Shown here piece by piece: positions 152 through 64,000 of a stretch of DNA of 64,000 bases. Position numbers and translations under genes: made by a program. A model generated the notes under the pieces. It saw only the letters and a program-made list of their open reading frames with translations, was not told where the DNA came from and ran no database searches. The DNA is taken from the IMG/VR virus record IMGVR_UViG_3300034170_000057. The stretch is one strand, 5' to 3'. This DNA comes from a virus. Its lineage: Duplodnaviria > Caudoviricetes. Numbering within the stretch: position 1 is the stretch's first letter; each line of letters opens with the position of its first letter.

Positions 152-1843
152 TCAGAGATTTTCTTCAATGACAATTTTCGACAGGGCCACAAGATGCTTG
201 CACAGGCCTACCGACATGCCGGGGTTTGTCCACACGGGAGGTTCGCCGTTGGAATAAATCAGGTACGCAGCACCGCAACGGGCGTTCGCATATTCCCACC
301 AATACACATAGTTTTCACAGTTATGAGCAATTAAGCCATTGGCTGCAAAACGATGCGGGCCGGGTACGGTGATATCGTAAACATGCTGCACACCAGCAAA
401 GGAAATATCTACGATTTCAGCCCATGCTTTGCGCGGGCGCGGTGGAGCTGCGTCGATACGGTTACGATGGTATAGGGACAGGGCGATGTTTTTCAGCGTG
501 TCACTCTGATTGGAGATTCGCAGCGCCCACATTTCTTTCGTGGATTCTGCCACACCGTAATCGTCGTCAATCACGCAGGTTTTAACACCGGCTTCGCGCT
601 CACGATAAAACGTGGTTTGCACGATTCCATATTCCATCAGTTTCCAGTTCAACTGATCGAGGTATTCATGCGCGCCGCGAATCAGAATGTCACCGTTCCT
701 GTACGTCGTACCGTCCGTGGCAATCAGCCCCGAAAGGTAGCCCATGGTTTGCTCGAATGTATCGAGTTTTACAGAGCGTTTGTTGTCGAACTTGTAGCGG
801 TGACATAACTCAATTGCACGCTGTGTGAACTGCACGTTCAAACCGTTTTCGCGGCCCTTTATTTCCGACACATCTTTGACAAGGCCGAGGGGAGTCAACA
901 CTTTCAAAATCGAATGTTTGTGGCCGAACAATTTCAGGTTCGGATAGCCAGTGGCGAACAGCGTACCGTCACCCTGCATAACACCGATGAAAAACGCTTC
1001 CCAATAATCTTGCGTGCGCTCAATCTTGGGTTGCTCAAAGGCGTTGGTCAGCAGCTTATCACCGACATTTAAATCCTGAACCTCTTCCCACTTCTCAAGG
1101 AATTTACGGTTTCCTAACGACACATGTTTCAGGAACTGGTGATCGCGAGTTGCCGTGATCGTCTGCCCGTTACTCAACGTGAGTTTGTAAACCTTTTTCT
1201 TGCCGGTATAAAACGGCGTAGTGCCTGCGAAAAGTTCGCCCTTGATGTTGTAGTTAATCGGGAAGTGTTCCGGCGCGTGCGGCTGTGCCAATTCGAAAAT
1301 TGTTTTCCAACCATGATCGGTCAGCACTTTCGTATCACCGGTCAAACACGTGCATTGCACAAGTACGCGCTTGTGTTTGTACAGTGGTTTGTCTTCACCG
1401 TTTTTGTCGAGGCCCACGATGTATGTTTCGTGGTAGCGCCGGACTTTATCAGGGCGGAACGGGTCATTCGTCCACATGATCCCTTTAACGGCTTTGCGGC
1501 CTGCTTTGGTCTTCGCGCTGCGGTAACGATGCGCTTCAACGTCCACCGCATTGTTCAAGCAAATCGGGAACGTATTCCGGATAAGTTCCTTGAGACTTTT
1601 ACCCTGACGTGTGAAGAACGTTTCCGGCATTGGGCGAGCGCCCAAGTTTTCGAATTTACGCAGCTTGTACGGAATGCCACGCACCTTCACTTGACCAGCG
1701 GAGCGCACCGGGGCGGCAGTAGATTTCCGCTTTCGCTCAGTGGTCTTTTCTGCTTCACGCGTGGCCTGTGTTTTCTTGGGTTTTGTGATGATGCGTTTTT
1801 TCTTTACTGATTGCACCTTCACTTTTTTAGTCTTGACTGCCAT
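152..1843 (-). CDS. SWIM-type zinc-finger protein interrupted by an intein
   Basis: After removing the intein the extein reads VQCT-CENY...GLCKHLVAL (CxC...CxH); Lys-rich N-terminus. Confidence 0.8.
   Translation of the reverse strand: MAVKTKKVKVQSVKKKRIITKPKKTQATREAEKTTERKRKSTAAPVRSAGQVKVRGIPYKLRKFENLGARPMPETFFTRQGKSLKELIRNTFPICLNNAVDVEAHRYRSAKTKAGRKAVKGIMWTNDPFRPDKVRRYHETYIVGLDKNGEDKPLYKHKRVLVQCTCLTGDTKVLTDHGWKTIFELAQPHAPEHFPINYNIKGELFAGTTPFYTGKKKVYKLTLSNGQTITATRDHQFLKHVSLGNRKFLEKWEEVQDLNVGDKLLTNAFEQPKIERTQDYWEAFFIGVMQGDGTLFATGYPNLKLFGHKHSILKVLTPLGLVKDVSEIKGRENGLNVQFTQRAIELCHRYKFDNKRSVKLDTFEQTMGYLSGLIATDGTTYRNGDILIRGAHEYLDQLNWKLMEYGIVQTTFYREREAGVKTCVIDDDYGVAESTKEMWALRISNQSDTLKNIALSLYHRNRIDAAPPRPRKAWAEIVDISFAGVQHVYDITVPGPHRFAANGLIAHNCENYVYWWEYANARCGAAYLIYSNGEPPVWTNPGMSVGLCKHLVALSKIVIEENL
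320..1348 (-). mobile_element. intein (343 aa) with LAGLIDADG homing endonuclease
   Basis: Block A CLTGDTKVLT, block B TATRDH, endonuclease blocks FFIGVMQGDG and YLSGLIATDG, block F VYDITV, block G IAHN followed by Cys+1. Confidence 0.93.
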
Positions 1844-2523
1844 TAGGCGTCCTCTAGGCGCTTCGTTACCCTTTCAAAATGGTACGGGTGCCCGGTTAAA
1901 ACCAGTAATTTGTTTTCCTTCTTTCGCTTCAGAATGTGTGGCAGTTTCAACCCGCTCAGATCCAGAATGCGGCTGCCCTTTTTAGGGATTTTATCCCGGT
2001 ACTCGTTGTACACGATGATATGCACTTTCGCGTCAGCCAGAGAATAGGAAAGCGTGGCAGACGGTGACGGCTCAAATCGGTCGAGGACGCATTTGCGCAC
2101 GTCGATTTTCATTTTCAATTTGCTGACTTGGTACGTCACGGTATGCAGCACACTTGGATCGACAACGAACGAAATATATCCGCCCGGTTTCAGGATGCGT
2201 TTCAAGTGGGCCATCATTTCCATATCCGCATTCCGCCACGCTTCAGGCCGCAACCAATTCATGGGGCCTAGAGCGTTGAGTTCTGGATATGCGAAAATAT
2301 AGGAAAAGCATTCGTCTTTGATTTTGCGCAGGTTATGCAGCAACGTACCCTGCCAGACGTTAATGTCTTCGTCTTCGTTGGCCCAGCGACGGAACGGCAC
2401 ATTCTGATTGTGGAAGGCGACGATAGATCCGTCGTGTTCTTCACAGCGTGCGATGGATGGGATATCCCCAACCACCACGCAGCCACAATTAAAATGATTA
2501 ATCATCGTGTCTAAGTGACTCAT
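1843..2523 (-). CDS. degenerate beta-class N6/N4 DNA methyltransferase-like protein
   Basis: QGTLLHNLRKIKDECFSYIFAYPE and LKRILKPGGYISFV match the MTase scaffold; DPPY and FxGxG are not intact. Start placed at ATG 2523 (GGTG RBS); ORF track starts at 2583. Confidence 0.5.
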   Translation of the reverse strand: MSHLDTMINHFNCGCVVVGDIPSIARCEEHDGSIVAFHNQNVPFRRWANEDEDINVWQGTLLHNLRKIKDECFSYIFAYPELNALGPMNWLRPEAWRNADMEMMAHLKRILKPGGYISFVVDPSVLHTVTYQVSKLKMKIDVRKCVLDRFEPSPSATLSYSLADAKVHIIVYNEYRDKIPKKGSRILDLSGLKLPHILKRKKENKLLVLTGHPYHFERVTKRLEDA

Positions 2524-2818
2524 GCATTTCACCGCCGTTTTCCCAGTGCTGCACGCGGCTGATAAAAAGTCCGTAGTCCACAATCACCGAGAGCGGTAGT
2601 TCGTTCAACATGCGGACAGGTTCATTATTCACGGTCACGTCGTAAATAAGACGCGGGATATTTTCGGAGGTATCGAGGCTGGCGACGAACGCGTAATACT
2701 GTTCGTTAAGCTCGACCGTGTGGTATATCAACACCGAGTCTTTTACCAGTTGCAATTGGTTCAAGAGGTTGGCTGATTTCTGGAATAGTTCCGAGAAACA
2801 CGGGGTTATTGTTGGCAT
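2498..2818 (-). CDS. hypothetical protein
   Basis: 106-aa ORF filling the gap between co-oriented genes; start uncertain (overlaps upstream gene). Confidence 0.45.
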   Translation of the reverse strand: MPTITPCFSELFQKSANLLNQLQLVKDSVLIYHTVELNEQYYAFVASLDTSENIPRLIYDVTVNNEPVRMLNELPLSVIVDYGLFISRVQHWENGGEMHESLRHDD

Positions 2819-8425: not shown

Positions 8426-9550
8426 TTACGCGTTCAGATTATCCAAGTTCTGGATAATGCTTTGTGCGCTAGACGTGCGATGCAGCACGACGCCTACTTC
8501 GTTCTCAACATAGAAAACGTCCACGTAACGAATGTTCTGGAAGTTTTCGTTTACAAGGCGAACGGTGCGAATGTAATCAACGTTTGCACCGTTCACTTCA
8601 CGACTGTACATCAGGGACAGCACGCCGGTTGCCTCATCGACTTCCGACATAGTGTCGGATGGAAGCATGTCTTTCAGGCTCTGCATTTTTTCCGAATGAA
8701 TGGCCGCGATAATTTCCGGCGATTCTTTTACCGGCCCAGTGTCTGCCACGTCGTCAATCGGCGCGGCGGGTTGCTGGTCATTCCGGTCGGCAATAACTGC
8801 CACGGTTTCTGCTTCGGTCAGCGGTTCCTGTGCATGCACGGGCTCGCCATTCAACGCACCGGCCAGTGCATCAGATTGCGCTTCGCTTGCGGTCAGTGCT
8901 GGGGCGGCCTGTGCTTCGTTTACAGGCTCTTCCTCTGGCAAAGGCTCTTCCTCTACCAGTGGAGCGTCTGCAATCTCTTCAGCGGGGGCCTGTTGCGCTA
9001 CAGCGGCGACCGGTGCCGACTCTTCAGCGGGGAAATCCTCTTCAGCGGGGAAATCCTCTTCCTTTACAACCGGGGGCGTTTGTCGGGCGTTGCCGATTTG
9101 AGGAACGATAGAAAGGACGCGACCGCTTTCCGGTGCAGTGCTTGCGCCGCCGTCCACTTCGATTGTGTCGTCTTCCTCTTCGTCGCTTTCGATATCGTCG
9201 AAAGCCACGCGCAGGTCGTCGAGTTCCGCTTCCACGTTCGTGAGGTAAACCACGAATTCAGAATCGCCCGTGTAACTGCAAATATGCATGTCGTGACGGC
9301 TTGCGAAATCCATCATCAGCTCGCTAGCGATTTCAGACGCGTAATCAGGATCTACCAGATCCCAAATCGGCAACGAAATACGTTTCGCCAGAACTTCAAC
9401 GTCATCCGGCAGTTGCAATTCAACCGGGTCGAGTTTGTACCAGTCGGCCAGTTCGTCAGCCGTGACGCTGAACGCTTGAGAAAACAGGCTCAGATAAAAG
9501 GCGTGGATTGCGTTATGCGCGGCAGCCTTCAGGTTATTGAAAAATTGCAT
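8426..9550 (-). CDS. acidic low-complexity hypothetical protein
   Basis: 374-aa ORF with E/A/P-rich linker, GAGG RBS, 18-nt tandem duplication (EEDFPA x2). Confidence 0.75.
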   Translation of the reverse strand: MQFFNNLKAAAHNAIHAFYLSLFSQAFSVTADELADWYKLDPVELQLPDDVEVLAKRISLPIWDLVDPDYASEIASELMMDFASRHDMHICSYTGDSEFVVYLTNVEAELDDLRVAFDDIESDEEEDDTIEVDGGASTAPESGRVLSIVPQIGNARQTPPVVKEEDFPAEEDFPAEESAPVAAVAQQAPAEEIADAPLVEEEPLPEEEPVNEAQAAPALTASEAQSDALAGALNGEPVHAQEPLTEAETVAVIADRNDQQPAAPIDDVADTGPVKESPEIIAAIHSEKMQSLKDMLPSDTMSEVDEATGVLSLMYSREVNGANVDYIRTVRLVNENFQNIRYVDVFYVENEVGVVLHRTSSAQSIIQNLDNLNA

Positions 9551-9616
9551 GGCATGTACCTCGGAATTAAATTTGCGGGGGATTCTTATTGCTCCCCCGC
9601 GTGGGAACAGGAACGA

Positions 9617-11512
9617 TTAGATTTCGATGCCGTTGGCTTCGCAAATTGCGACGAAACCATCGAAGTCTACAGAACGGACAGTTTGAGTTGCCACGTTGAT
9701 CAGGCCGACAACTTCATTGCCTTGTTGATCATGACGCAGGCCGATGAACAGGTAGCTATTGCCGTTGTCATCGACGGTCGAACCCGGCTCGATGCTGTAG
9801 CAGAAAGTGGTGTACGCATCTTGCGATTCATACCACGCCACGGCTGCGTTGCGCATTGCACCTTGGTATTTCGGGGTGCTGATAATGCGGGCCATACGAG
9901 ACGACGCGTCGGCAACCAATTGCGAGATATCGAGGGGGAAAGAGGTTTCGGCGTCTTGGTCGAAAGTTTGGCTTTCAGGGAAGTCCGATTGTTCCTCTTC
10001 CTCTTCCTGCTCTTCCTCTTCTTGTTCCTCTTCCTCTTCCTGCTCTTCCTCTTCTTGTTCCTCTTCCTCTTCCTGCTCTTCCTCTTCTTGTTCCTCTTCC
10101 TCTTCCTGCTCTTCCTCCTCTTCAGGAATGTCGGAATCCGCACCGGTCAATTGGTGCGCGTCGAGGTCGCTACCTTCGTCGTCAGCGAAGTTTTCACGGC
10201 GCTGGCGTTCGATTTGTGCAGCAACGAATTCGGGATCAGCGTCGGCAACCGCGAAGCTAAACGCAACGGTACACATGGCAGTACCGCGACCGGCGAACGA
10301 GGAAACCAAGTTCACGTCGTATTCCGCGCCCATGATTTTGCGGATTTGTTCTTCCAGCAAATCGCGAATGTCTTCGGCGGTATCGTCGTCGAATTCGGCA
10401 ACATGGATAATCTTTTTCTCAAACGGTGGAACTTCACGGGTTTTCGGAAGCGCGCCGCCCGATTTCTGATTGGCACCAGCAGCGCCGCCATAAACCAGTT
10501 TTGCGCCGACTTGTTGAATGTCCGCGATAGCGATACGCACGCCCGAGTCGAGTTCGATTGTGCCGCTGGTAAATACGCGTTCAACGGTTTGCAATTTCTT
10601 GCCGACCAGAATCTGCGTTACGCCTTTCTTGAAACTGCGCGAGGTCAAAGGCTTCGGTGTGTCTTTGGCCTTTTGGATTGCCTTGGCGCGGGTGTTCGCT
10701 TGTTCGTGCAGTTCTTTCAGTTCTGCAATGTAATCGTCGGAGTACACGCAGAATTTGCCGCTGACGGTTTTGCGAACTTCGTCGATTTGGAAAGTCACGC
10801 CGTCTTCCAGTTGGCATTTGCCAGACGGGAAAGTTTTCACGACTTTCAGGTCGTCGCCGTCGAAGTCGATCACCTTGTTGCGAACGTCGCCGGTTTCGTA
10901 TTGACCGGCTGGGCCATACAGCGCGCCTTCGTCGAATGCCATGTCATCATCGCCGGTAGCGGCCTTGGCTTTCTTCACAGCGCCACCTTTTGCAGCAGGT
11001 TTTGCAACGGCTGCTTTTACAGGGGCTTTTTCAGCAGCAGGTTTTGCAGCGACGGTTTTCGGTGCCTTACCTGCTTTCGGTGCTGGGGTCACAACATCGG
11101 CGCCGTAGCCTTTACCCTTGCGGGTAATGTCAGCGATTGCAACGGTGGAACCATCGGCCAGAACTACAATGCCTTCTTTACGTTTCAGGCTTTCGATTTC
11201 GACGCCGTTGATCTTGCGCGCCTTTTCGTCCAGTTCTTTGAACGTGACGGAAGCCGGGGCCGGACGTTCTGCTTTTGCAGCAGGCGCAGGGGCAGCAGCG
11301 GCAACGGTGGATTTCTTGGCAACGCCGCCTTTCAGGTCAACGAATTTGCCTTTGCCCTTGTTGTACATGTCCGAGACATTGAACTCGGAACCTTCGACGG
11401 TACGAATGGTGCCGTTCTTCAGGTGGGTTTTCACCACCTCTTTGATAATGCCTTTCTTGCCGTGGTTTACGTTTACGGTGGCGCCTTTCAAGTTCACGGT
11501 AGTCATTTCCAA
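9617..11512 (-). CDS. repeat protein: four ~40-aa beta-rich modules, K/A linkers, (E4-5Q)n tract, C-terminal domain
   Basis: Modules such as VERVFTSGTIELDSGVRIAIADI; GGAG RBS; highly expressed codon bias. Confidence 0.8.
   Translation of the reverse strand: MEMTTVNLKGATVNVNHGKKGIIKEVVKTHLKNGTIRTVEGSEFNVSDMYNKGKGKFVDLKGGVAKKSTVAAAAPAPAAKAERPAPASVTFKELDEKARKINGVEIESLKRKEGIVVLADGSTVAIADITRKGKGYGADVVTPAPKAGKAPKTVAAKPAAEKAPVKAAVAKPAAKGGAVKKAKAATGDDDMAFDEGALYGPAGQYETGDVRNKVIDFDGDDLKVVKTFPSGKCQLEDGVTFQIDEVRKTVSGKFCVYSDDYIAELKELHEQANTRAKAIQKAKDTPKPLTSRSFKKGVTQILVGKKLQTVERVFTSGTIELDSGVRIAIADIQQVGAKLVYGGAAGANQKSGGALPKTREVPPFEKKIIHVAEFDDDTAEDIRDLLEEQIRKIMGAEYDVNLVSSFAGRGTAMCTVAFSFAVADADPEFVAAQIERQRRENFADDEGSDLDAHQLTGADSDIPEEEEEQEEEEEQEEEEQEEEEEQEEEEQEEEEEQEEEEQEEEEEQSDFPESQTFDQDAETSFPLDISQLVADASSRMARIISTPKYQGAMRNAAVAWYESQDAYTTFCYSIEPGSTVDDNGNSYLFIGLRHDQQGNEVVGLINVATQTVRSVDFDGFVAICEANGIEI
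9989..10123. repeat. 33-nt tandem repeat (~4 copies) encoding EEEEQEEEEEQ
   Basis: TTGTTCCTCTTCCTCTTCCTGCTCTTCCTCTTC units on the plus strand. Confidence 0.9.
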
Positions 11513-11726
11513 ATCTCCAACTTTCCAAATTTCGTTAGTGTCGTTTATCGACTGTGCATTTGCCGAGGGCGGCGAACTACCAACGGCAAACGCTCATCGC
11601 AGAACAGGCGGTGGCGCATGCCTATATAAGGCAGCAACATCAAACTTCCCTTATTCCGTGAGCGCTAATGCATCAGGCACAAAACGTTACGGAAGGCCCC
11701 CACGGTATCAAAGGGCCTTCATTAGG

Positions 11727-61100: not shown

Positions 61101-64000
61101 CACCGGGTGAAAAATTCCTGAGTGATCTTGCGGTTAACGCGCCACCGAACACGATTTTTATCAGTTCGATGACTTTCATTCAGGGCCGGAACACTCGCGT
61201 TTGTATCGGTAATGCGCAGGTTAACTTCTCGCAAAACCTTGAGCTGGTCCGTCGCCTCGGTTGCAACTATGTGGCAATCGACGAATCGCACAACCTGAAA
61301 TCTTTCAAATCTGCGCGTCACCGTGCGGTAAAAATTCTGACCTCCTCGACCACCGTCAAATGGCTGCGCCTGCTGACTGGTACGATCATGCCAGACCGTG
61401 CGAAAGATATCGAAGGGCAAATCGCGTTGAAAGCACCGCACGTTTTCCGTGCTGGTGATATCGCGAATATCAAGCCCGATCAGGAAGCGGAAAAAGACAG
61501 CGGCCAAGTGAAAATTGGTGATCGCATCATTACCACTTTTACACCGTTGAACGGTAAACGTGCGGTCGATAAACTCGGTCACTATATTTCGTTTATCGTG
61601 AAAGAGAAAAAAGACTGGGCCTACATGCTGCCGTCCGCAATCGAACGTTTTCACCCGGTTCCAATGGTGGACTATGAGGGTTCCGACGGTACGAGCGCGG
61701 TAGAAATCGAACAGCAAAAACTGCACGAACAGCTTTATCGTTTGGTACTCGACCGCACGTTGGAAGAAATGGAACCTTTGCTGCGCCAGAAAGCGAAAGC
61801 TGAAAAGCTCGCAGATAAAGGCGACGGCGACGACGAAGAGGACGAAGACGATAGCGACGGTAAAGGGCCGGATACCACCGATAACGACGCTGACTTTGCT
61901 GGCGACAAAATCAAACAGAAATTGTGGGAGAAAAACATCGCGCGTTTTGAACGCCTGATTATCTGCCCGCAGGAAGACGAAGCCTACGACGAAGTTTTCG
62001 GCTCGATGGGTGAAGGTTTTGTTTCGCGAAAAGCGAAGTACATCGCGAACCTGACTGCGCAACACTTTAACCCGCAGAAATGGAAACGTGGCGAGCGTTA
62101 TATCGAACTCGACCTCGTTGATTTCGAAGGTCAGCTGTACGTCGCACGAAAATATAATCCGGGCGAAACTCGTGTTGCAATTCCGGATGGTGCGAAGGGC
62201 AAAACCCCAGTCGAGGCTCCAGATTATTGGAAGCCGGAACCAAAGGGCAAGCTGATCATTATCACGCGTTACAACGCAAGCGCACGCGCAATTTACGAAG
62301 CGCTGCCGTCGAACTACCAGTCGATGGCTGTGAAATTCACCGGTGATGAACCGGATCGCGTGAAGGCTTTCAACGATTTCAAAACTGATGATCGCGTACA
62401 AATTCTGATCGCGAACGAACAAGGCATGTCCGAAGGCCATAACCTTCAATTGGCAAGCCGGATGATTCGTGCGGAAGCCCCGTGGGGGCCGGGTGCATTG
62501 GCTCAAACTGCTGCGCGTGTATGGCGTCCTGATGCGAAGGGTGCAATTGCAGCGGCGAAGGGTGAAGGCGGTCTGACCCGTGACGTGGTTTATCTGGATT
62601 GGGTACTCGCTGACAACACTATGGAAGTGCCGAAATTGGCGCGTGTTATTTCCAAGACTTTTGGTGTTGCACGAATCACCGAAGCATCGAATCCGTTGTA
62701 TCAGGAATTGTTGGCTTCCGTGGTTGTTCCAACGGAAAAAGAAGACGCACGTTTGTCGCTTAGCGTGGATATGCTCGCTTCCACTGCTGGCCTCGACGAC
62801 GAACCTTTTAACGAAATGGAAGACGCGTATCGTCGCCTCAACGCCGTCGAATCGAAAGAGTTCGCAGAAATGCGCAACACGATGAAAGCGGATATGTTGC
62901 CGATTGAAGGCGCTCCAAATCTGGAAGGCTCGGCGCGTATGGAACTTGTTCCTTTCGTTGCGAACCAGCCAATCCCCGACCAAAACAATTGGGGCCTGTT
63001 GAACGTCGAAGTTCTGATGCGTGACGCGGAACTGTTGAAAAACTATCGCGAAACTCTTCGCACTAAACCGGTTGTTACGGAATGGGGCACAGGGCGTATC
63101 GTTGGGTTCAACACTCGTGGCGGTAAGCTGTCGAGTTTGATTGTGAACTTGAAAAACCCACCATCCGGTATGGCTGGGCGTATCACCATTCAAACGAACA
63201 TGGCCTACATTGCACAACGCAATATCACGCCTGAGCAAGAAGCACGTTTCTTTGAAGTGTCGCTCGCTGGTACGGATACCGAAGAAAAACGCACAGCCTC
63301 TCGCCAAAAACGTTTGGAGGATCAGCAGAAGAAACAAGCTGAAGCCGAAGACCGTGAAGCACGGATCAAGAAAAGTCAGGAAACCGACAAGATCCGCGTT
63401 ATCAAGAAAGAGGCGAAAGACGGCGCGGTTCGCGAAGACAACGAGAAAAAAGGTCGCCCAATCAACGAGGGTATTTACGATACTGGCGGTACGGTGAAAA
63501 TCGGCGGGGGCAAGAAACTCAAAGCCACCGACAACCCGAAAGTCGGCGTCGTTGTGGAACAGGAAGAATTCCCGGAAGAGGCAGCAGAGGTTCCGGAAGT
63601 TTCGCTGTATCCTGCCTACTACCACGGGTTCGCAACACTGGAAGCAATTCCAGAAGGTGGCGATCCGCAGTTGAAGAAAGCTGGCTTCCAATTTACTCCG
63701 GCCTTCGCGTATATCAACGTTTCGAACAAGAAGAAATTCCACGCGATCTACGATTGGGTTTACGAAAACTTCGAAGTGAACGACAAATTGAACGACTTGT
63801 TTATGTCGATCAACAACGCGTTCGACGAAGGTCAGAAAAATACCCACAAGTTGTGGTATCGCTTGGAACTGGCACCGGTTTCTGAATTGCCAGCGTTCTT
63901 CAGCGTGCAGAAACGCATGAGCAGTAATCGTCGGGCCATTCGCGTGTTCCCGATCTTTACCGAAGAACACGTGATGTTGTGCGTGGACTTGCGGACTAAC
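58139..64000 (+). CDS. giant SNF2-family ATPase/helicase (at least 1954 aa, partial; runs off window end)
   Basis: Hand-translated open frame from ATG 58139; FPHQ, LAPGGGKT (60887), ICPNGLINTW, IDESH, LTGT, EGHNLQ, AQTAARVWR. Confidence 0.9.
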   Translation, partial: MNRAMWKQNPIADVLRKKRLELQQQDELAEQLAAYARANGEDDDENDDENDDGDDSSEFVKSIRTISLEPARNMEYESFFYPKKERNFLVPILESLSDVTANINLFFRFMRLCMQSANQLSQYSEEQVEARISSIFVQIFQSKRTSSSVEQDVVAFLRASRRTAHSFHNVYRSKRYNEGLDIVLMGAGADPEKEGLPAPYFGVEDFKLGRSEYLESNNTHPMTDFARRGKWQSPIGERIIAAAREIHMFLWGTVASSERMIHRGIPLNTKFSDIERIWVKNTGLKLPTAGELITDMVVSNPFAEQFLQIEVIKQPSQAVKTFTEKVRNTRPAFNEQQLSPTAINSKIEDALNGANPKISPESELLNVTLRASIRFTLESDVAHFVSQTPESARPSLTRTNSWFSLYIAQVLRAKVSGTGKAYKVTNTSAIRMEHIPRYATSASTLKRVPALREQFGYVVEKTKGNAENMFITPQGTMAVRPSIDALQKTTLAEDFEKTSEELLELLSRNEIPLAAFQDDYRAEKWPWVDAQDLERMQELVKALDNFAGCSLGFDWDFGINIQATSTPGRTITSTSVGSVTPDSLAIADWLGFNLANEGEKPMKRSFSQSMYTLSHGEHTAWAYKRAEELYGAADDHLKFAKSGLVTNLVNLYMRIAYVDNKAPQLPELLAGAMRALNYQKLPTEQGFDFSQDYTKYLTQEGTLIDRHKGNVRGIILGLLETAMDMASGAQGTHLWNETFENLRNGDKTPRASEVSLELENHPDYFNSTISTAAEFARLYRYFGGQVFKQILDAINSVEIEHFANAKGGEQIVELGEMPDSPGRQYSISLTLQPNATLYKDVLPFAVMLGKYAPNSETIFAEAAEQVESIKPDPSFSSDDIKFPGMIGEDRAIFPHQEDVQSSLRKKNPPNFAILALAPGGGKTGQGIIDIACLMADMKEAGLVVRPLVICPNGLINTWCEEMKYFQGANWNAFPISSDVLSRWTAKNAPGEKFLSDLAVNAPPNTIFISSMTFIQGRNTRVCIGNAQVNFSQNLELVRRLGCNYVAIDESHNLKSFKSARHRAVKILTSSTTVKWLRLLTGTIMPDRAKDIEGQIALKAPHVFRAGDIANIKPDQEAEKDSGQVKIGDRIITTFTPLNGKRAVDKLGHYISFIVKEKKDWAYMLPSAIERFHPVPMVDYEGSDGTSAVEIEQQKLHEQLYRLVLDRTLEEMEPLLRQKAKAEKLADKGDGDDEEDEDDSDGKGPDTTDNDADFAGDKIKQKLWEKNIARFERLIICPQEDEAYDEVFGSMGEGFVSRKAKYIANLTAQHFNPQKWKRGERYIELDLVDFEGQLYVARKYNPGETRVAIPDGAKGKTPVEAPDYWKPEPKGKLIIITRYNASARAIYEALPSNYQSMAVKFTGDEPDRVKAFNDFKTDDRVQILIANEQGMSEGHNLQLASRMIRAEAPWGPGALAQTAARVWRPDAKGAIAAAKGEGGLTRDVVYLDWVLADNTMEVPKLARVISKTFGVARITEASNPLYQELLASVVVPTEKEDARLSLSVDMLASTAGLDDEPFNEMEDAYRRLNAVESKEFAEMRNTMKADMLPIEGAPNLEGSARMELVPFVANQPIPDQNNWGLLNVEVLMRDAELLKNYRETLRTKPVVTEWGTGRIVGFNTRGGKLSSLIVNLKNPPSGMAGRITIQTNMAYIAQRNITPEQEARFFEVSLAGTDTEEKRTASRQKRLEDQQKKQAEAEDREARIKKSQETDKIRVIKKEAKDGAVREDNEKKGRPINEGIYDTGGTVKIGGGKKLKATDNPKVGVVVEQEEFPEEAAEVPEVSLYPAYYHGFATLEAIPEGGDPQLKKAGFQFTPAFAYINVSNKKKFHAIYDWVYENFEVNDKLNDLFMSINNAFDEGQKNTHKLWYRLELAPVSELPAFFSVQKRMSSNRRAIRVFPIFTEEHVMLCVDLRTN

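What the first reader, a model, noticed from the sequence alone, without database searches (positions are those of the whole stretch)
320..1348. Intein inserted between the two Cys of a SWIM zinc-finger CxC
Splicing joins VQCT to CENY...CKH, so the Cys+1 nucleophile is itself the second predicted Zn ligand. Inteins usually occupy conserved sites of replication enzymes, so one in a 220-aa stand-alone SWIM protein suggests an essential, conserved phage function. Splicing could also be metal- or redox-gated. Both LAGLIDADG blocks keep their acidic DG residues, so homing may be active.
Basis: partly seen in the sequence, partly recalled or inferred. Interest (0 to 1): 0.75.

Follow-up and report, generated by a model that had tools for sequence, protein, structure and literature searches.

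The report
Homing intein splitting a phage SWIM-like finger
A jumbo Pseudomonas phage gene for a small, conserved zinc-finger-like protein is interrupted by an ordinary but apparently still mobile self-splicing intein that sits directly before one of the predicted zinc-binding cysteines; this host protein and site were not found described in the literature I could search.

Summary
Window 152-1843 (minus strand) encodes a 563-aa precursor: a 165-aa N-extein, a 343-aa class-1 intein at exactly 320-1348, and a 55-aa C-extein.

- **Boundaries.** An intein-free allele 98% identical to the spliced product exists, and it differs by exactly 1029 nt.
- **Endonuclease.** The intein carries a LAGLIDADG homing endonuclease. 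The fold matches PI-SceI and TliVMA, both catalytic Asp are kept, and dN/dS is about 0.1.
- **Mobility.** Presence is scattered over the extein tree (at least 14 gains or losses in 71 sequences). Intein and extein trees conflict. One filled/empty pair differs by a single extein nucleotide. Homing is probably active or recent.
- **Extein.** It belongs to a large phage family of unknown function (phrog_18980) with an invariant CxC-x38-CKH. It is SWIM-like by motif and fold but fails Pfam's SWIM cut-off.
- **The +1 Cys** is the invariant second Cys of that motif.
- **New here.** Relatives carry a second intein site directly before the third Cys (CKH).
- **Untested.** Zinc or redox gating, and whether the protein is essential.

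First-stage notes of this scan describe similar SWIM inteins on other DNA. This is a new member of a known kind, of moderate interest.

The parts
152..1843 (-). Whole precursor gene (563 codons plus stop). The ATG overlaps the stop of the upstream gene (TAATG).
1349..1843 (-). N-extein, aa 1-165. It has a Lys/Arg-rich, low-confidence tail (aa 1-60) followed by a beta-sheet core, and ends ...VLVQCT.
   Evidence: phrog_18980 positions 2-164; AF2 model of the intein-free allele
1352..1354 (-). Cys164, the first Cys of CxC and predicted Zn ligand 1 (position -2 relative to the intein).
   Evidence: invariant
320..1348 (-). Intein, aa 166-508 (343 aa). It is class 1, with a HINT splicing domain and an inserted LAGLIDADG endonuclease domain.
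1346..1348 (-). Intein Cys1, the first nucleophile.
   Evidence: invariant in 23 inteins
1133..1156 (-). Intein block B (TATRDHQF, the TxxH motif).
   Evidence: T67 invariant and H70 at 90% or more in alignment A3
965..994 (-). LAGLIDADG motif 1 (FFIGVMQGDG), with catalytic Asp at aa 292.
710..742 (-). LAGLIDADG motif 2 (GYLSGLIATDG), with catalytic Asp at aa 377.
   Evidence: D212 invariant in A3
320..382 (-). Intein blocks F and G (VYDITVPGPHRFAANGLIAHN): block-F Asp, penultimate His, terminal Asn508.
155..319 (-). C-extein, aa 509-563. It begins CENYVYWW and contains the EYANA, NG, NP and CKH motifs.
317..319 (-). Cys+1 (aa 509). It is the second splicing nucleophile and the second Cys of CxC, so it is predicted Zn ligand 2.
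   Evidence: invariant C166 of intein-free homologues
194..202 (-). Cys548-Lys-His550, the CKH motif and predicted Zn ligands 3 and 4. In some relatives a second intein sits directly before this Cys.
1843..2583 (-). Context only: the upstream gene of unknown function, translationally coupled. It is conserved next to the SWIM-like gene in HRDY3, Lu11 and close metagenomic relatives.

Best explanation
The gene encodes a precursor of a small SWIM-like, probably zinc-binding protein from the replication/recombination gene block of a Lu11/HRDY3-like jumbo Pseudomonas phage. The precursor is interrupted by a canonical class-1 intein that carries a LAGLIDADG homing endonuclease.

**Inferred splicing steps (from the residues)**
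1. Cys166 makes the thioester.
2. Cys509 (+1) attacks it.
3. Asn508 cyclises.
4. An S-to-N shift gives the 220-aa protein reading ...QCT-CENY...

Only then do Cys164, Cys166', Cys205' and His207' lie in one chain segment able to form the CxC...CxH site. The mature fold therefore depends on splicing.

**Inferred homing.** The freed intein acts as a homing endonuclease. During co-infection it cuts intein-less alleles at the conserved ...CAATGCACG|TGTGAAAAC... site and is copied in by repair.

The site is a niche because the codons around the invariant Cys are the most conserved in the gene and supply the obligatory +1 nucleophile.

**Shown:** anatomy, boundaries, empty alleles, folds, selection, scattered distribution.
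**Inferred:** splicing, zinc binding, cleavage.
For: **Intein identity**
- Intein profiles are above their cut-offs.
- All class-1 catalytic residues are present and conserved across 23 inteins.
- There is an exact 1029-nt gap against an empty allele that is 98.2% identical in the extein.

**Endonuclease fold**
- The AF2 intein model has pLDDT 92.9.
- Foldseek top hits are TliVMA (E 3e-16), PI-SceI (TM 0.72-0.74), PI-PfuI and I-DmoI.

**Selection and mobility**
- HEN dN/dS is 0.085-0.12, equal to the splicing domain and extein core at about 0.09.
- Between the window and L007, dS is 0.74-0.93 in the intein against about 2.4 in the extein core.
- Intein presence needs at least 14 changes on a 71-row extein tree.
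- The filled/empty pair L007/L009 has 98-99% identical flanks and one extein nucleotide difference.
- The intein tree rejects a clade that the extein tree supports, p-AU 6e-51.

**Extein**
- C164, C166, C205, K206 and H207 are invariant.
- 123 of 124 family representatives have CxC-x38-40-CxH.
- AFDB top fold hits are SWIM-type proteins, E 5e-6 to 1e-3.
- The best PDB chain is ZSWIM8: Z 5.2, rmsd 2.5 over 82 residues.
- UniRef names the HRDY3 homologue as SWIM-type.

**Context**
- FEN, topoisomerase II A/B and a PD-(D/E)XK nuclease lie on the same strand.
- In PaBG, Erwinia Y3 and Yersinia Yen9-02 the gene lies between primase/exonuclease and sigma/SSB/RecA genes.
Against: - No experiment shows splicing, zinc binding or DNA cleavage.
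- Pfam SWIM is below its cut-off in every member tested.
- Pfam LAGLIDADG_3 is only E 0.52.
- The 38-residue spacer is long for a SWIM finger.
- PDB Foldseek gave nothing for the extein. The ZSWIM8 Z of 5.2 is within the range the tool warns can be a common arrangement.
- dS is saturated in several comparisons.
- The AU-tested clade was chosen after seeing pairwise identities.
- The scattered distribution could partly reflect precise loss by recombination with empty alleles rather than fresh invasion.
Confidence: 0.88

Rival explanations
1. The intein is a domesticated regulator. Zinc availability or oxidation holds the precursor unspliced, either by Zn binding to Cys+1 with the extein ligands or by a Cys164-Cys166 (C-x-C1) disulfide. 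Production of the active SWIM-like protein is then conditional.
For: - In the precursor the CxC spacing is kept as Cys(-2)-Thr-Cys1, and Cys+1 is a predicted Zn ligand.
- There are precedents. An N-extein Cys to Cys1 disulfide traps the P. abyssi MoaA precursor, and zinc inhibits splicing of RecA, Prp8 and M. smegmatis DnaB inteins (review PMC10663303, read; PMC7360933, listed).
- Two separate intein sites in this family both use a predicted Zn-ligand Cys as +1.
Against: - There is no direct evidence.
- Intein-free alleles are the majority and occur in near-identical phages, so the intein is dispensable.
- The pattern is fully explained by selfish homing into conserved codons that offer a Cys.
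- Zinc inhibits many inteins non-specifically.
Confidence: 0.15
2. The intein is real, but its endonuclease is dead or decaying. It persists only by vertical descent and occasional precise loss.
For: - Pfam LAGLIDADG_3 is only E 0.52.
- One relative (P0070) has Tyr in place of the motif-1 Asp.
- Mini-inteins without a HEN domain exist at the same site in relatives (P0089, P0109, P0165).
Against: - Both Asp are kept in the window copy and in nearly all relatives.
- HEN dN/dS is about 0.1.
- Intein synonymous divergence is lower than that of the extein.
- The intein and extein trees conflict.
- A near-isogenic filled/empty pair exists.
Confidence: 0.12
3. The extein is not a SWIM-family member. 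It is an unrelated phage fold that happens to carry a CxC...CxH metal site, or no metal at all.
For: - The Pfam SWIM score is 12.5-13.3 bits against a cut-off of 19.6, only 2 of 60 members reach E 0.01, and none pass in a six-frame search of three phage genomes.
- The spacer is 38-40 residues.
- Swiss-Prot and PDB Foldseek gave no significant hit.
Against: - SWIM is the top Pfam hit in all three phage homologues.
- AFDB cluster hits at E 5e-6 to 1e-3 are SWIM-type proteins, and weaker hits include the N-terminal modules of HepA-like helicases.
- ZSWIM8 is the single best PDB representative chain.
- The nearest ESM Atlas clusters carry PF04434 on 11-19% of members.
- UniRef gives a SWIM-type name.
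Confidence: 0.15

Closest known systems
PI-SceI (yeast VMA1 intein) and the TliVMA/PhoVMA inteins: class-1 inteins with an inserted double-motif LAGLIDADG homing endonuclease
   Same: - Cys1, TxxH, His-Asn and Cys+1 chemistry.
- A HINT domain with an inserted alpha-beta-beta-alpha-beta-beta-alpha x2 endonuclease domain.
- Best structural matches: E 3e-16, TM up to 0.74.
   Different: - Only 12-17% sequence identity.
- At 343 aa it is smaller than PI-SceI.
- The host is a phage SWIM-like protein, not an ATPase subunit.
- Cleavage activity is untested.
Mycobacteriophage inteins (TerL, portal, primase and others; Kelley et al. 2016, PMC5050341)
   Same: - Phage-borne.
- Scattered among close relatives.
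- Partner phages carry empty sites.
- The endonuclease cuts the intein-less allele of a related phage.
   Different: - That survey lists no SWIM or zinc-finger host.
- Here the hosts are Gram-negative jumbo phages.
- A related intein (31% identity) does sit in a portal protein, P0079.
Pyrococcus abyssi MoaA intein 'redox trap' and zinc-inhibited inteins (Mtu RecA, Msm DnaB, Cne Prp8), as reviewed in PMC10663303
   Same: - A Cys lies close upstream of Cys1 in the N-extein.
- Catalytic cysteines can be tied up by a disulfide or by zinc.
   Different: - Here the spacing is C-x-C1 rather than the MoaA arrangement.
- The +1 Cys would itself be a native structural metal ligand of the mature host protein.
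- No conditional splicing has been shown.
SWIM zinc finger (Pfam PF04434; CxCxnCxH), e.g. ZSWIM8 and the N-terminal modules of bacterial SNF2/HepA-like helicases
   Same: - An invariant CxC...CxH signature.
- A beta-sheet followed by a helical finger.
- Top fold matches.
   Different: - Below the Pfam cut-off.
- A 38-residue spacer with its own invariant EYAN, NG and NP motifs.
- Stand-alone, about 130-220 aa, and phage-specific (phrog_18980).
- Function unknown.

Membership tests
Class-1 intein (HINT; PF14890, TIGR01445/TIGR01443) | Profile matches above curated cut-offs | tested here: met
   PF14890 scores 54 bits against 35.8. TIGR01445 scores 39.9 against 24.5, and TIGR01443 scores 33 against 15.6.
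Class-1 intein (HINT; PF14890, TIGR01445/TIGR01443) | Catalytic residues: Cys/Ser1, block-B TxxH, block-F Asp, penultimate His, terminal Asn, and +1 Cys/Ser/Thr | tested here: met
   Cys166, T232..H235, the Asp of VYDIT, H507-N508 and Cys509 are all present. They are invariant or nearly so in 23 homologous inteins.
Class-1 intein (HINT; PF14890, TIGR01445/TIGR01443) | In-frame insertion that is absent from otherwise collinear homologues | tested here: met
   There is an exact 1029-nt gap against L004. The spliced P0057 product is identical to the intein-free P0011.
Class-1 intein (HINT; PF14890, TIGR01445/TIGR01443) | Protein splicing actually occurs | not testable with these tools
   This needs expression and gel or mass-spectrometry analysis.
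LAGLIDADG homing endonuclease (double-motif, intein-borne) | Two LAGLIDADG helices, each ending in an acidic residue | tested here: met
   The motifs are ..MQGDG and ..IATDG. D127 is at 90% or more and D212 is invariant in A3.
LAGLIDADG homing endonuclease (double-motif, intein-borne) | Pseudo-dimeric alpha-beta-beta-alpha-beta-beta-alpha fold | tested here: met
   The AF2 secondary-structure pattern fits. Foldseek matches PI-SceI, TliVMA, PI-PfuI and I-DmoI.
LAGLIDADG homing endonuclease (double-motif, intein-borne) | Pfam LAGLIDADG profile above cut-off | tested here: not met
   PF14528 gives E 0.52 and 11.1 bits against a cut-off of 22.5.
LAGLIDADG homing endonuclease (double-motif, intein-borne) | Site-specific cleavage of the intein-less allele | not testable with these tools
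   There is only indirect evolutionary support.
SWIM zinc finger (PF04434) | CxCxnCxH signature | tested here: met
   C164, C166, C205 and H207 are invariant. 123 of 124 representatives carry it, but with n = 38-40, which is long.
SWIM zinc finger (PF04434) | Pfam model above its gathering score | tested here: not met
   Scores are 12.5-13.3 bits against 19.6. None of 60 members is over the cut-off. None is over the cut-off in HRDY3, Lu11 or PaBG six-frame searches, while the same search scored over the cut-off in 13 of 14 control genomes.
SWIM zinc finger (PF04434) | SWIM-type fold | tested here: inconclusive
   AFDB cluster hits named SWIM-type reach E 5e-6 to 1e-3. ZSWIM8 gives Z 5.2, the best of 48,161 chains. 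PDB and Swiss-Prot Foldseek gave nothing significant.
SWIM zinc finger (PF04434) | Binds one zinc through the four residues | not testable with these tools

The most novel reading that the evidence does not exclude
The predicted zinc-ligand cysteines of phage SWIM-like fingers are a recurrent, preferred intein niche. In this family at least two independent sites have been colonised by several intein lineages. First-stage, untested notes of this scan describe similar cases on other DNA.

Assembly of the zinc site may be coupled to splicing. Zinc or oxidation acting on Cys164, Cys1 and Cys+1 would then gate maturation of a protein from the replication gene block during infection.
Probability: 0.15. 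Interest if true: 0.7.

Novelty: new member of a known kind. Interest (0 to 1): 0.45.

Why it matters
- **New host family.** It adds an uncharacterised but widespread phage protein family to the list of intein hosts: 947 representatives at 50% identity, found in jumbo phages of Pseudomonas, Erwinia, Dickeya, Yersinia and Salmonella.
- **Pointer to function.** Two separate intein sites each lie directly before an invariant, predicted zinc-binding cysteine. Inteins favour functionally critical residues, so this marks the CxC...CKH site as the functional heart of a protein nobody has studied.
- **Experimental material.** Natural near-isogenic filled and empty alleles, one pair differing by a single nucleotide next to the site, are ready material for homing and cleavage assays.
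- **A clean test case.** The arrangement, with a +1 nucleophile that is also a native metal ligand and a C-x-C1 in the precursor, allows a direct test of whether zinc or redox state can gate splicing. That remains speculation.

Tried and rejected
**Searches that gave nothing useful**
- Pfam and NCBIfam on the separate extein halves gave nothing.
- Pfam SWIM never passed its cut-off, neither on homologues nor in six-frame searches of HRDY3, Lu11 and PaBG.
- Foldseek of the extein model against PDB gave only NTF2-like noise at E above 0.06.
- Foldseek against Swiss-Prot models was non-significant, with FAR1-related 8, ZSWIM4 and ZSWIM5 only at E 0.2-0.3.
- An HMM of the extein family against PDB sequences gave nothing.
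- Megablast of the first 6 kb found only a 74.6% match, over 19% of the query, to phage HRDY3. The phage itself is not in the phage collection.
- No whole genome is held, so I could not count the inteins of this phage.
- PHROGs and Pfam on nine neighbouring genes gave no function.

**Literature**
- 'intein' with 'SWIM' returned only swimming-motility papers.
- 'intein' with 'SWIM zinc finger' returned none.
- A five-term search gave no relevant paper.
- The PaBG and MIJ3 papers mention only terminase and PolB inteins.

**Ideas considered and dropped**
- A co-conversion tract at the junction. The C-extein is somewhat more similar to the empty allele than the N-extein (10/168 against 53/495 mismatches), but there is no clear tract.
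- A bacterial intein-like (BIL) domain. This is rejected because the terminal Asn and +1 Cys are present and the empty alleles are precise.
- A conserved upstream partner across all jumbo phages. BLASTP links the upstream gene only within the Lu11/HRDY3 group.

**Not done**
- I could not read model coordinates to measure the geometry of the four ligands.
Full report
**1. What is there**

The minus strand of window 152-1843 holds one ORF of 563 codons. Its ATG overlaps the stop of the upstream gene (TAATG). The product reads N-extein aa 1-165 (...VLVQCT), then a 343-aa insert CLTGDTKV...GLIAHN, then C-extein aa 509-563 (CENYVYWW...GLCKHLVAL...).

The insert passes three intein models:
- Pfam Intein_splicing, 54 bits against 35.8.
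- TIGR01445 and TIGR01443, both above their cut-offs.

The two flanks together match one PHROG of 218 positions (phrog_18980, unknown function). The match has E 5e-82 and comes in two stretches that break at the junction.

**2. Empty-site alleles fix the boundaries**

The nearest isolates are three jumbo Pseudomonas phages. Each carries an uninterrupted gene of 218-220 aa reading ...QCTCEN/S...:
- HRDY3, 86% identity over the N-extein.
- Lu11, 73%.
- PaBG, 43%.

A metagenomic protein, P0005, is 98.2% identical to the spliced window product. Its contig L004 is collinear with the window except for a gap of exactly 1029 nt. The 26 bp around the insertion point are identical in the filled and empty alleles.

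A second pair is even closer. L007 (intein-bearing, P0057) and L009 (intein-free, P0011) share 99.1% and 97.8% identical flanks. Their extein coding sequences differ at one nucleotide in 660. That nucleotide is the base immediately 5' of the insertion point, ACG against ACT.

**3. The intein**

All class-1 residues are present: Cys1, block-B T..H, the block-F Asp, His-Asn at the end, and Cys+1. They are conserved across 23 homologous inteins.

Pfam's LAGLIDADG_3 model gives only E 0.52, so I folded the intein.
- The model has pLDDT 92.9 and pTM 0.89.
- It shows two alpha-beta-beta-alpha-beta-beta-alpha units inside a HINT domain.
- Its best PDB matches are the endonuclease-bearing inteins TliVMA (E 3e-16), PI-SceI (TM 0.72-0.74) and PI-PfuI. 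The free-standing I-DmoI follows.
- Both motif Asp residues are kept in the window copy and in all relatives but one. P0070 has Tyr in motif 1.

**4. Is it mobile?**

About 25 metagenomic homologues carry an intein at the same Cys-x|Cys site, with 98% down to 37% overall identity.

- **Scattered distribution.** On a tree of 71 exteins, intein presence needs at least 14 changes. Eleven are forced by well-supported branches, and the shuffled mean is 19. Several sister pairs are one filled and one empty.
- **Selection.** dN/dS of the endonuclease domain is 0.085-0.12. The splicing domain and the extein core are both about 0.09.
- **Synonymous divergence.** Between the window and L007, dS is 0.74-0.93 in the intein and about 2.4 (saturated) in the extein core. 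The intein is therefore younger than the divergence of its host genes.
- **Conflicting trees.** The intein tree has two deep lineages. It rejects a clade (P0066, P0067, P0072) that the extein tree supports, with p-AU 6e-51. The clade was chosen after I had seen pairwise identities.

Together these results favour repeated invasion and loss, that is, an active or recently active homing cycle. Cleavage itself is not shown. A related intein (31% identity over its whole length) sits in a phage portal protein, P0079.

**5. The extein**

*Conservation.* Forty-eight intein-free homologues have invariant C164, C166, C205, K206 and H207, plus the EYAN, NG and NP motifs. A profile search of 1.8 billion representatives finds 947 family members at E 1e-3 or better. 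Most are 130-190 aa. Of 124 short members, 123 have CxC-x38-40-CxH. The four residues stay invariant at 22% mean column identity.

*Evidence against a SWIM assignment.*
- Pfam SWIM is the top hit but below its cut-off: 12.5-13.3 bits against 19.6.
- Only 2 of 60 members reach E 0.01.
- None pass in six-frame searches of three phage genomes.

*Evidence for a SWIM assignment.*
- UniRef names the HRDY3 protein as SWIM-type.
- The AF2 model has pLDDT 79.9, and above 80 from residue 70 on.
- AFDB-cluster hits are SWIM-type proteins at E 5e-6 to 1e-3. Weaker hits include the N-terminal modules of HepA-like helicases.
- ZSWIM8 is the single best of 48,161 PDB representatives: Z 5.2, rmsd 2.5 A over 82 residues. 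The next hit has Z 3.4.
- The nearest ESM Atlas clusters are viral, with PF04434 on 11-19% of members.

I call it SWIM-like, a divergent long-spacer form. Zinc binding is inferred from invariance only.

*Function.* It is unknown.
- The gene lies at the end of a same-strand block holding a FEN-type exonuclease, topoisomerase II A and B, and a PD-(D/E)XK nuclease.
- In PaBG, Erwinia phage Y3 and Yersinia phage fHe-Yen9-02 it lies between primase/exonuclease genes and sigma-factor, SSB or RecA genes.
- The protein has a Lys/Arg-rich N-terminal tail that is modelled with low confidence.

A role in DNA transactions is the best guess, and it is inference.

**6. A second intein site, and a third**

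Some relatives carry another intein directly before the third invariant Cys, reading ...PGL | C[IV][AGS]...VVHN | CKH...:
- P0022 has a mini-intein of about 130 aa and no intein at the first site.
- P0073 has both sites filled (817 aa).
- P0078 and P0069 are further cases.
- About ten of the top 150 family representatives carry it.

About eleven of those 150 carry the first site, as full-length or mini-inteins. One protein (P0159) has an intein at a third place, before a Cys that precedes EYA. So in this family two predicted zinc-ligand cysteines each serve as the +1 nucleophile of an independent intein insertion.

First-stage notes of this scan describe similar inteins in SWIM CxC or CKH motifs in several other genomes. 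One followed-up case is an HNH intein in a phage ART-SWIM protein. I did not test those.

**7. How it most likely works**

The precursor splices by the standard four steps through Cys166, Cys509 and Asn508. Only the ligated chain can bring Cys164, the former +1 Cys, and the CKH Cys and His together. The free intein cuts empty alleles in co-infecting relatives and is copied in.

The site is favoured for two reasons. Its codons are the most conserved in the gene, and the invariant Cys supplies the required nucleophile.

- The precursor keeps a C-x-C spacing as Cys(-2)-Thr-Cys1.
- A disulfide between an N-extein Cys and Cys1 traps the P. abyssi MoaA precursor.
- Zinc inhibits several inteins (PMC10663303; PMC7360933).

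Nothing here tests that idea. The abundance of intein-free alleles in near-identical phages shows the intein is dispensable. I give adaptive gating about 15%.

**8. Novelty and score**

I found no paper linking inteins with SWIM domains. Neither the cross-domain intein survey (PMC4760082) nor the mycobacteriophage survey (PMC5050341) mentions such a host. The PaBG paper notes only terminase inteins in this phage group. InBase and InterPro could not be queried.

The intein itself is ordinary. The host family and its two sites at predicted metal-ligand cysteines appear undescribed. The verdict is a new member of a known kind, with interest 0.45.

Noticed in passing
homologues P0022, P0073, P0078, P0069, P0103, P0125, P0135, P0164, P0166, P0178, P0186, P0196, P0215 (not in the window): A second intein insertion site lies in the same protein family, directly before the Cys of the invariant CKH (...PGL|CIAKG...VVHN|CKH). 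It holds both mini-inteins and large inteins. P0073 carries inteins at both sites. P0118 and P0196 have Arg or Lys in place of the penultimate His.
   Followed up: partly
homologue P0159 (505 aa): A third insertion point lies in a divergent family member, ...CSCECDFFMYY|CLSGDT...VVHN|CEYAL. It sits before a Cys that is not one of the four invariant residues.
   Followed up: no
L007:2345-4033 versus L009:2047-2706: This near-isogenic filled/empty pair differs in the extein coding sequence only at the base immediately 5' of the insertion point (ACG filled, ACT empty). It could be a co-conversion mark or a target-site variant. The other empty allele, L004, has ACG.
   Followed up: partly
window 58139-64000 (+) and 60404-63970 (-): An open-ended ORF of more than 1953 aa has SNF2-related and Helicase_C domains, so it is a giant phage SNF2 helicase. 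A 1188-aa ORF with no Pfam hit lies antisense to it and is probably spurious. Bacterial SWIM modules are often fused to SNF2 helicases, so this helicase is a candidate partner of the SWIM-like protein. That link is speculation.
   Followed up: partly
L004:2503-3216: In the closest empty-allele contig, synteny with the window ends right after the stop codon of the SWIM-like gene. L004 has an alginate-lyase-like gene (PF08787) there, while the window has an unrelated small ORF starting at 143 on the minus strand.
   Followed up: no
L007:4882-5424, L008:4014-4238, L009:3549-4091: In relatives, a Tad2-like gene (PF11195, an anti-defence family) lies two or three genes downstream of the SWIM-like gene. 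In L007 and L009 it is followed by a gene whose product has a weak Sigma70_r2 hit.
   Followed up: no
P0079 (806 aa, Rhodospirillales MAG record): This phage portal protein (phrog_16240) is interrupted by an intein 31% identical over its full length to the window intein, with Ser as the +1 residue. The same intein lineage therefore occupies unrelated phage host proteins.
   Followed up: partly
window 8462-11629 (+): A 1055-aa ORF lies antisense to two minus-strand ORFs (8426-9550 and 9617-11512). The second of these gave only sub-threshold Pfam matches (Nop14, CDC45) in what may be a compositionally biased stretch. The long antisense frame is probably a by-product of that biased composition.
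   Followed up: no
window 1664-1843 (-), aa 1-60 of the precursor: This is a Lys/Arg-rich N-terminal tail with low model confidence, and it is absent from the 130-190-aa family members. First-stage notes report similar basic tails on many replication proteins of this phage.
   Followed up: no
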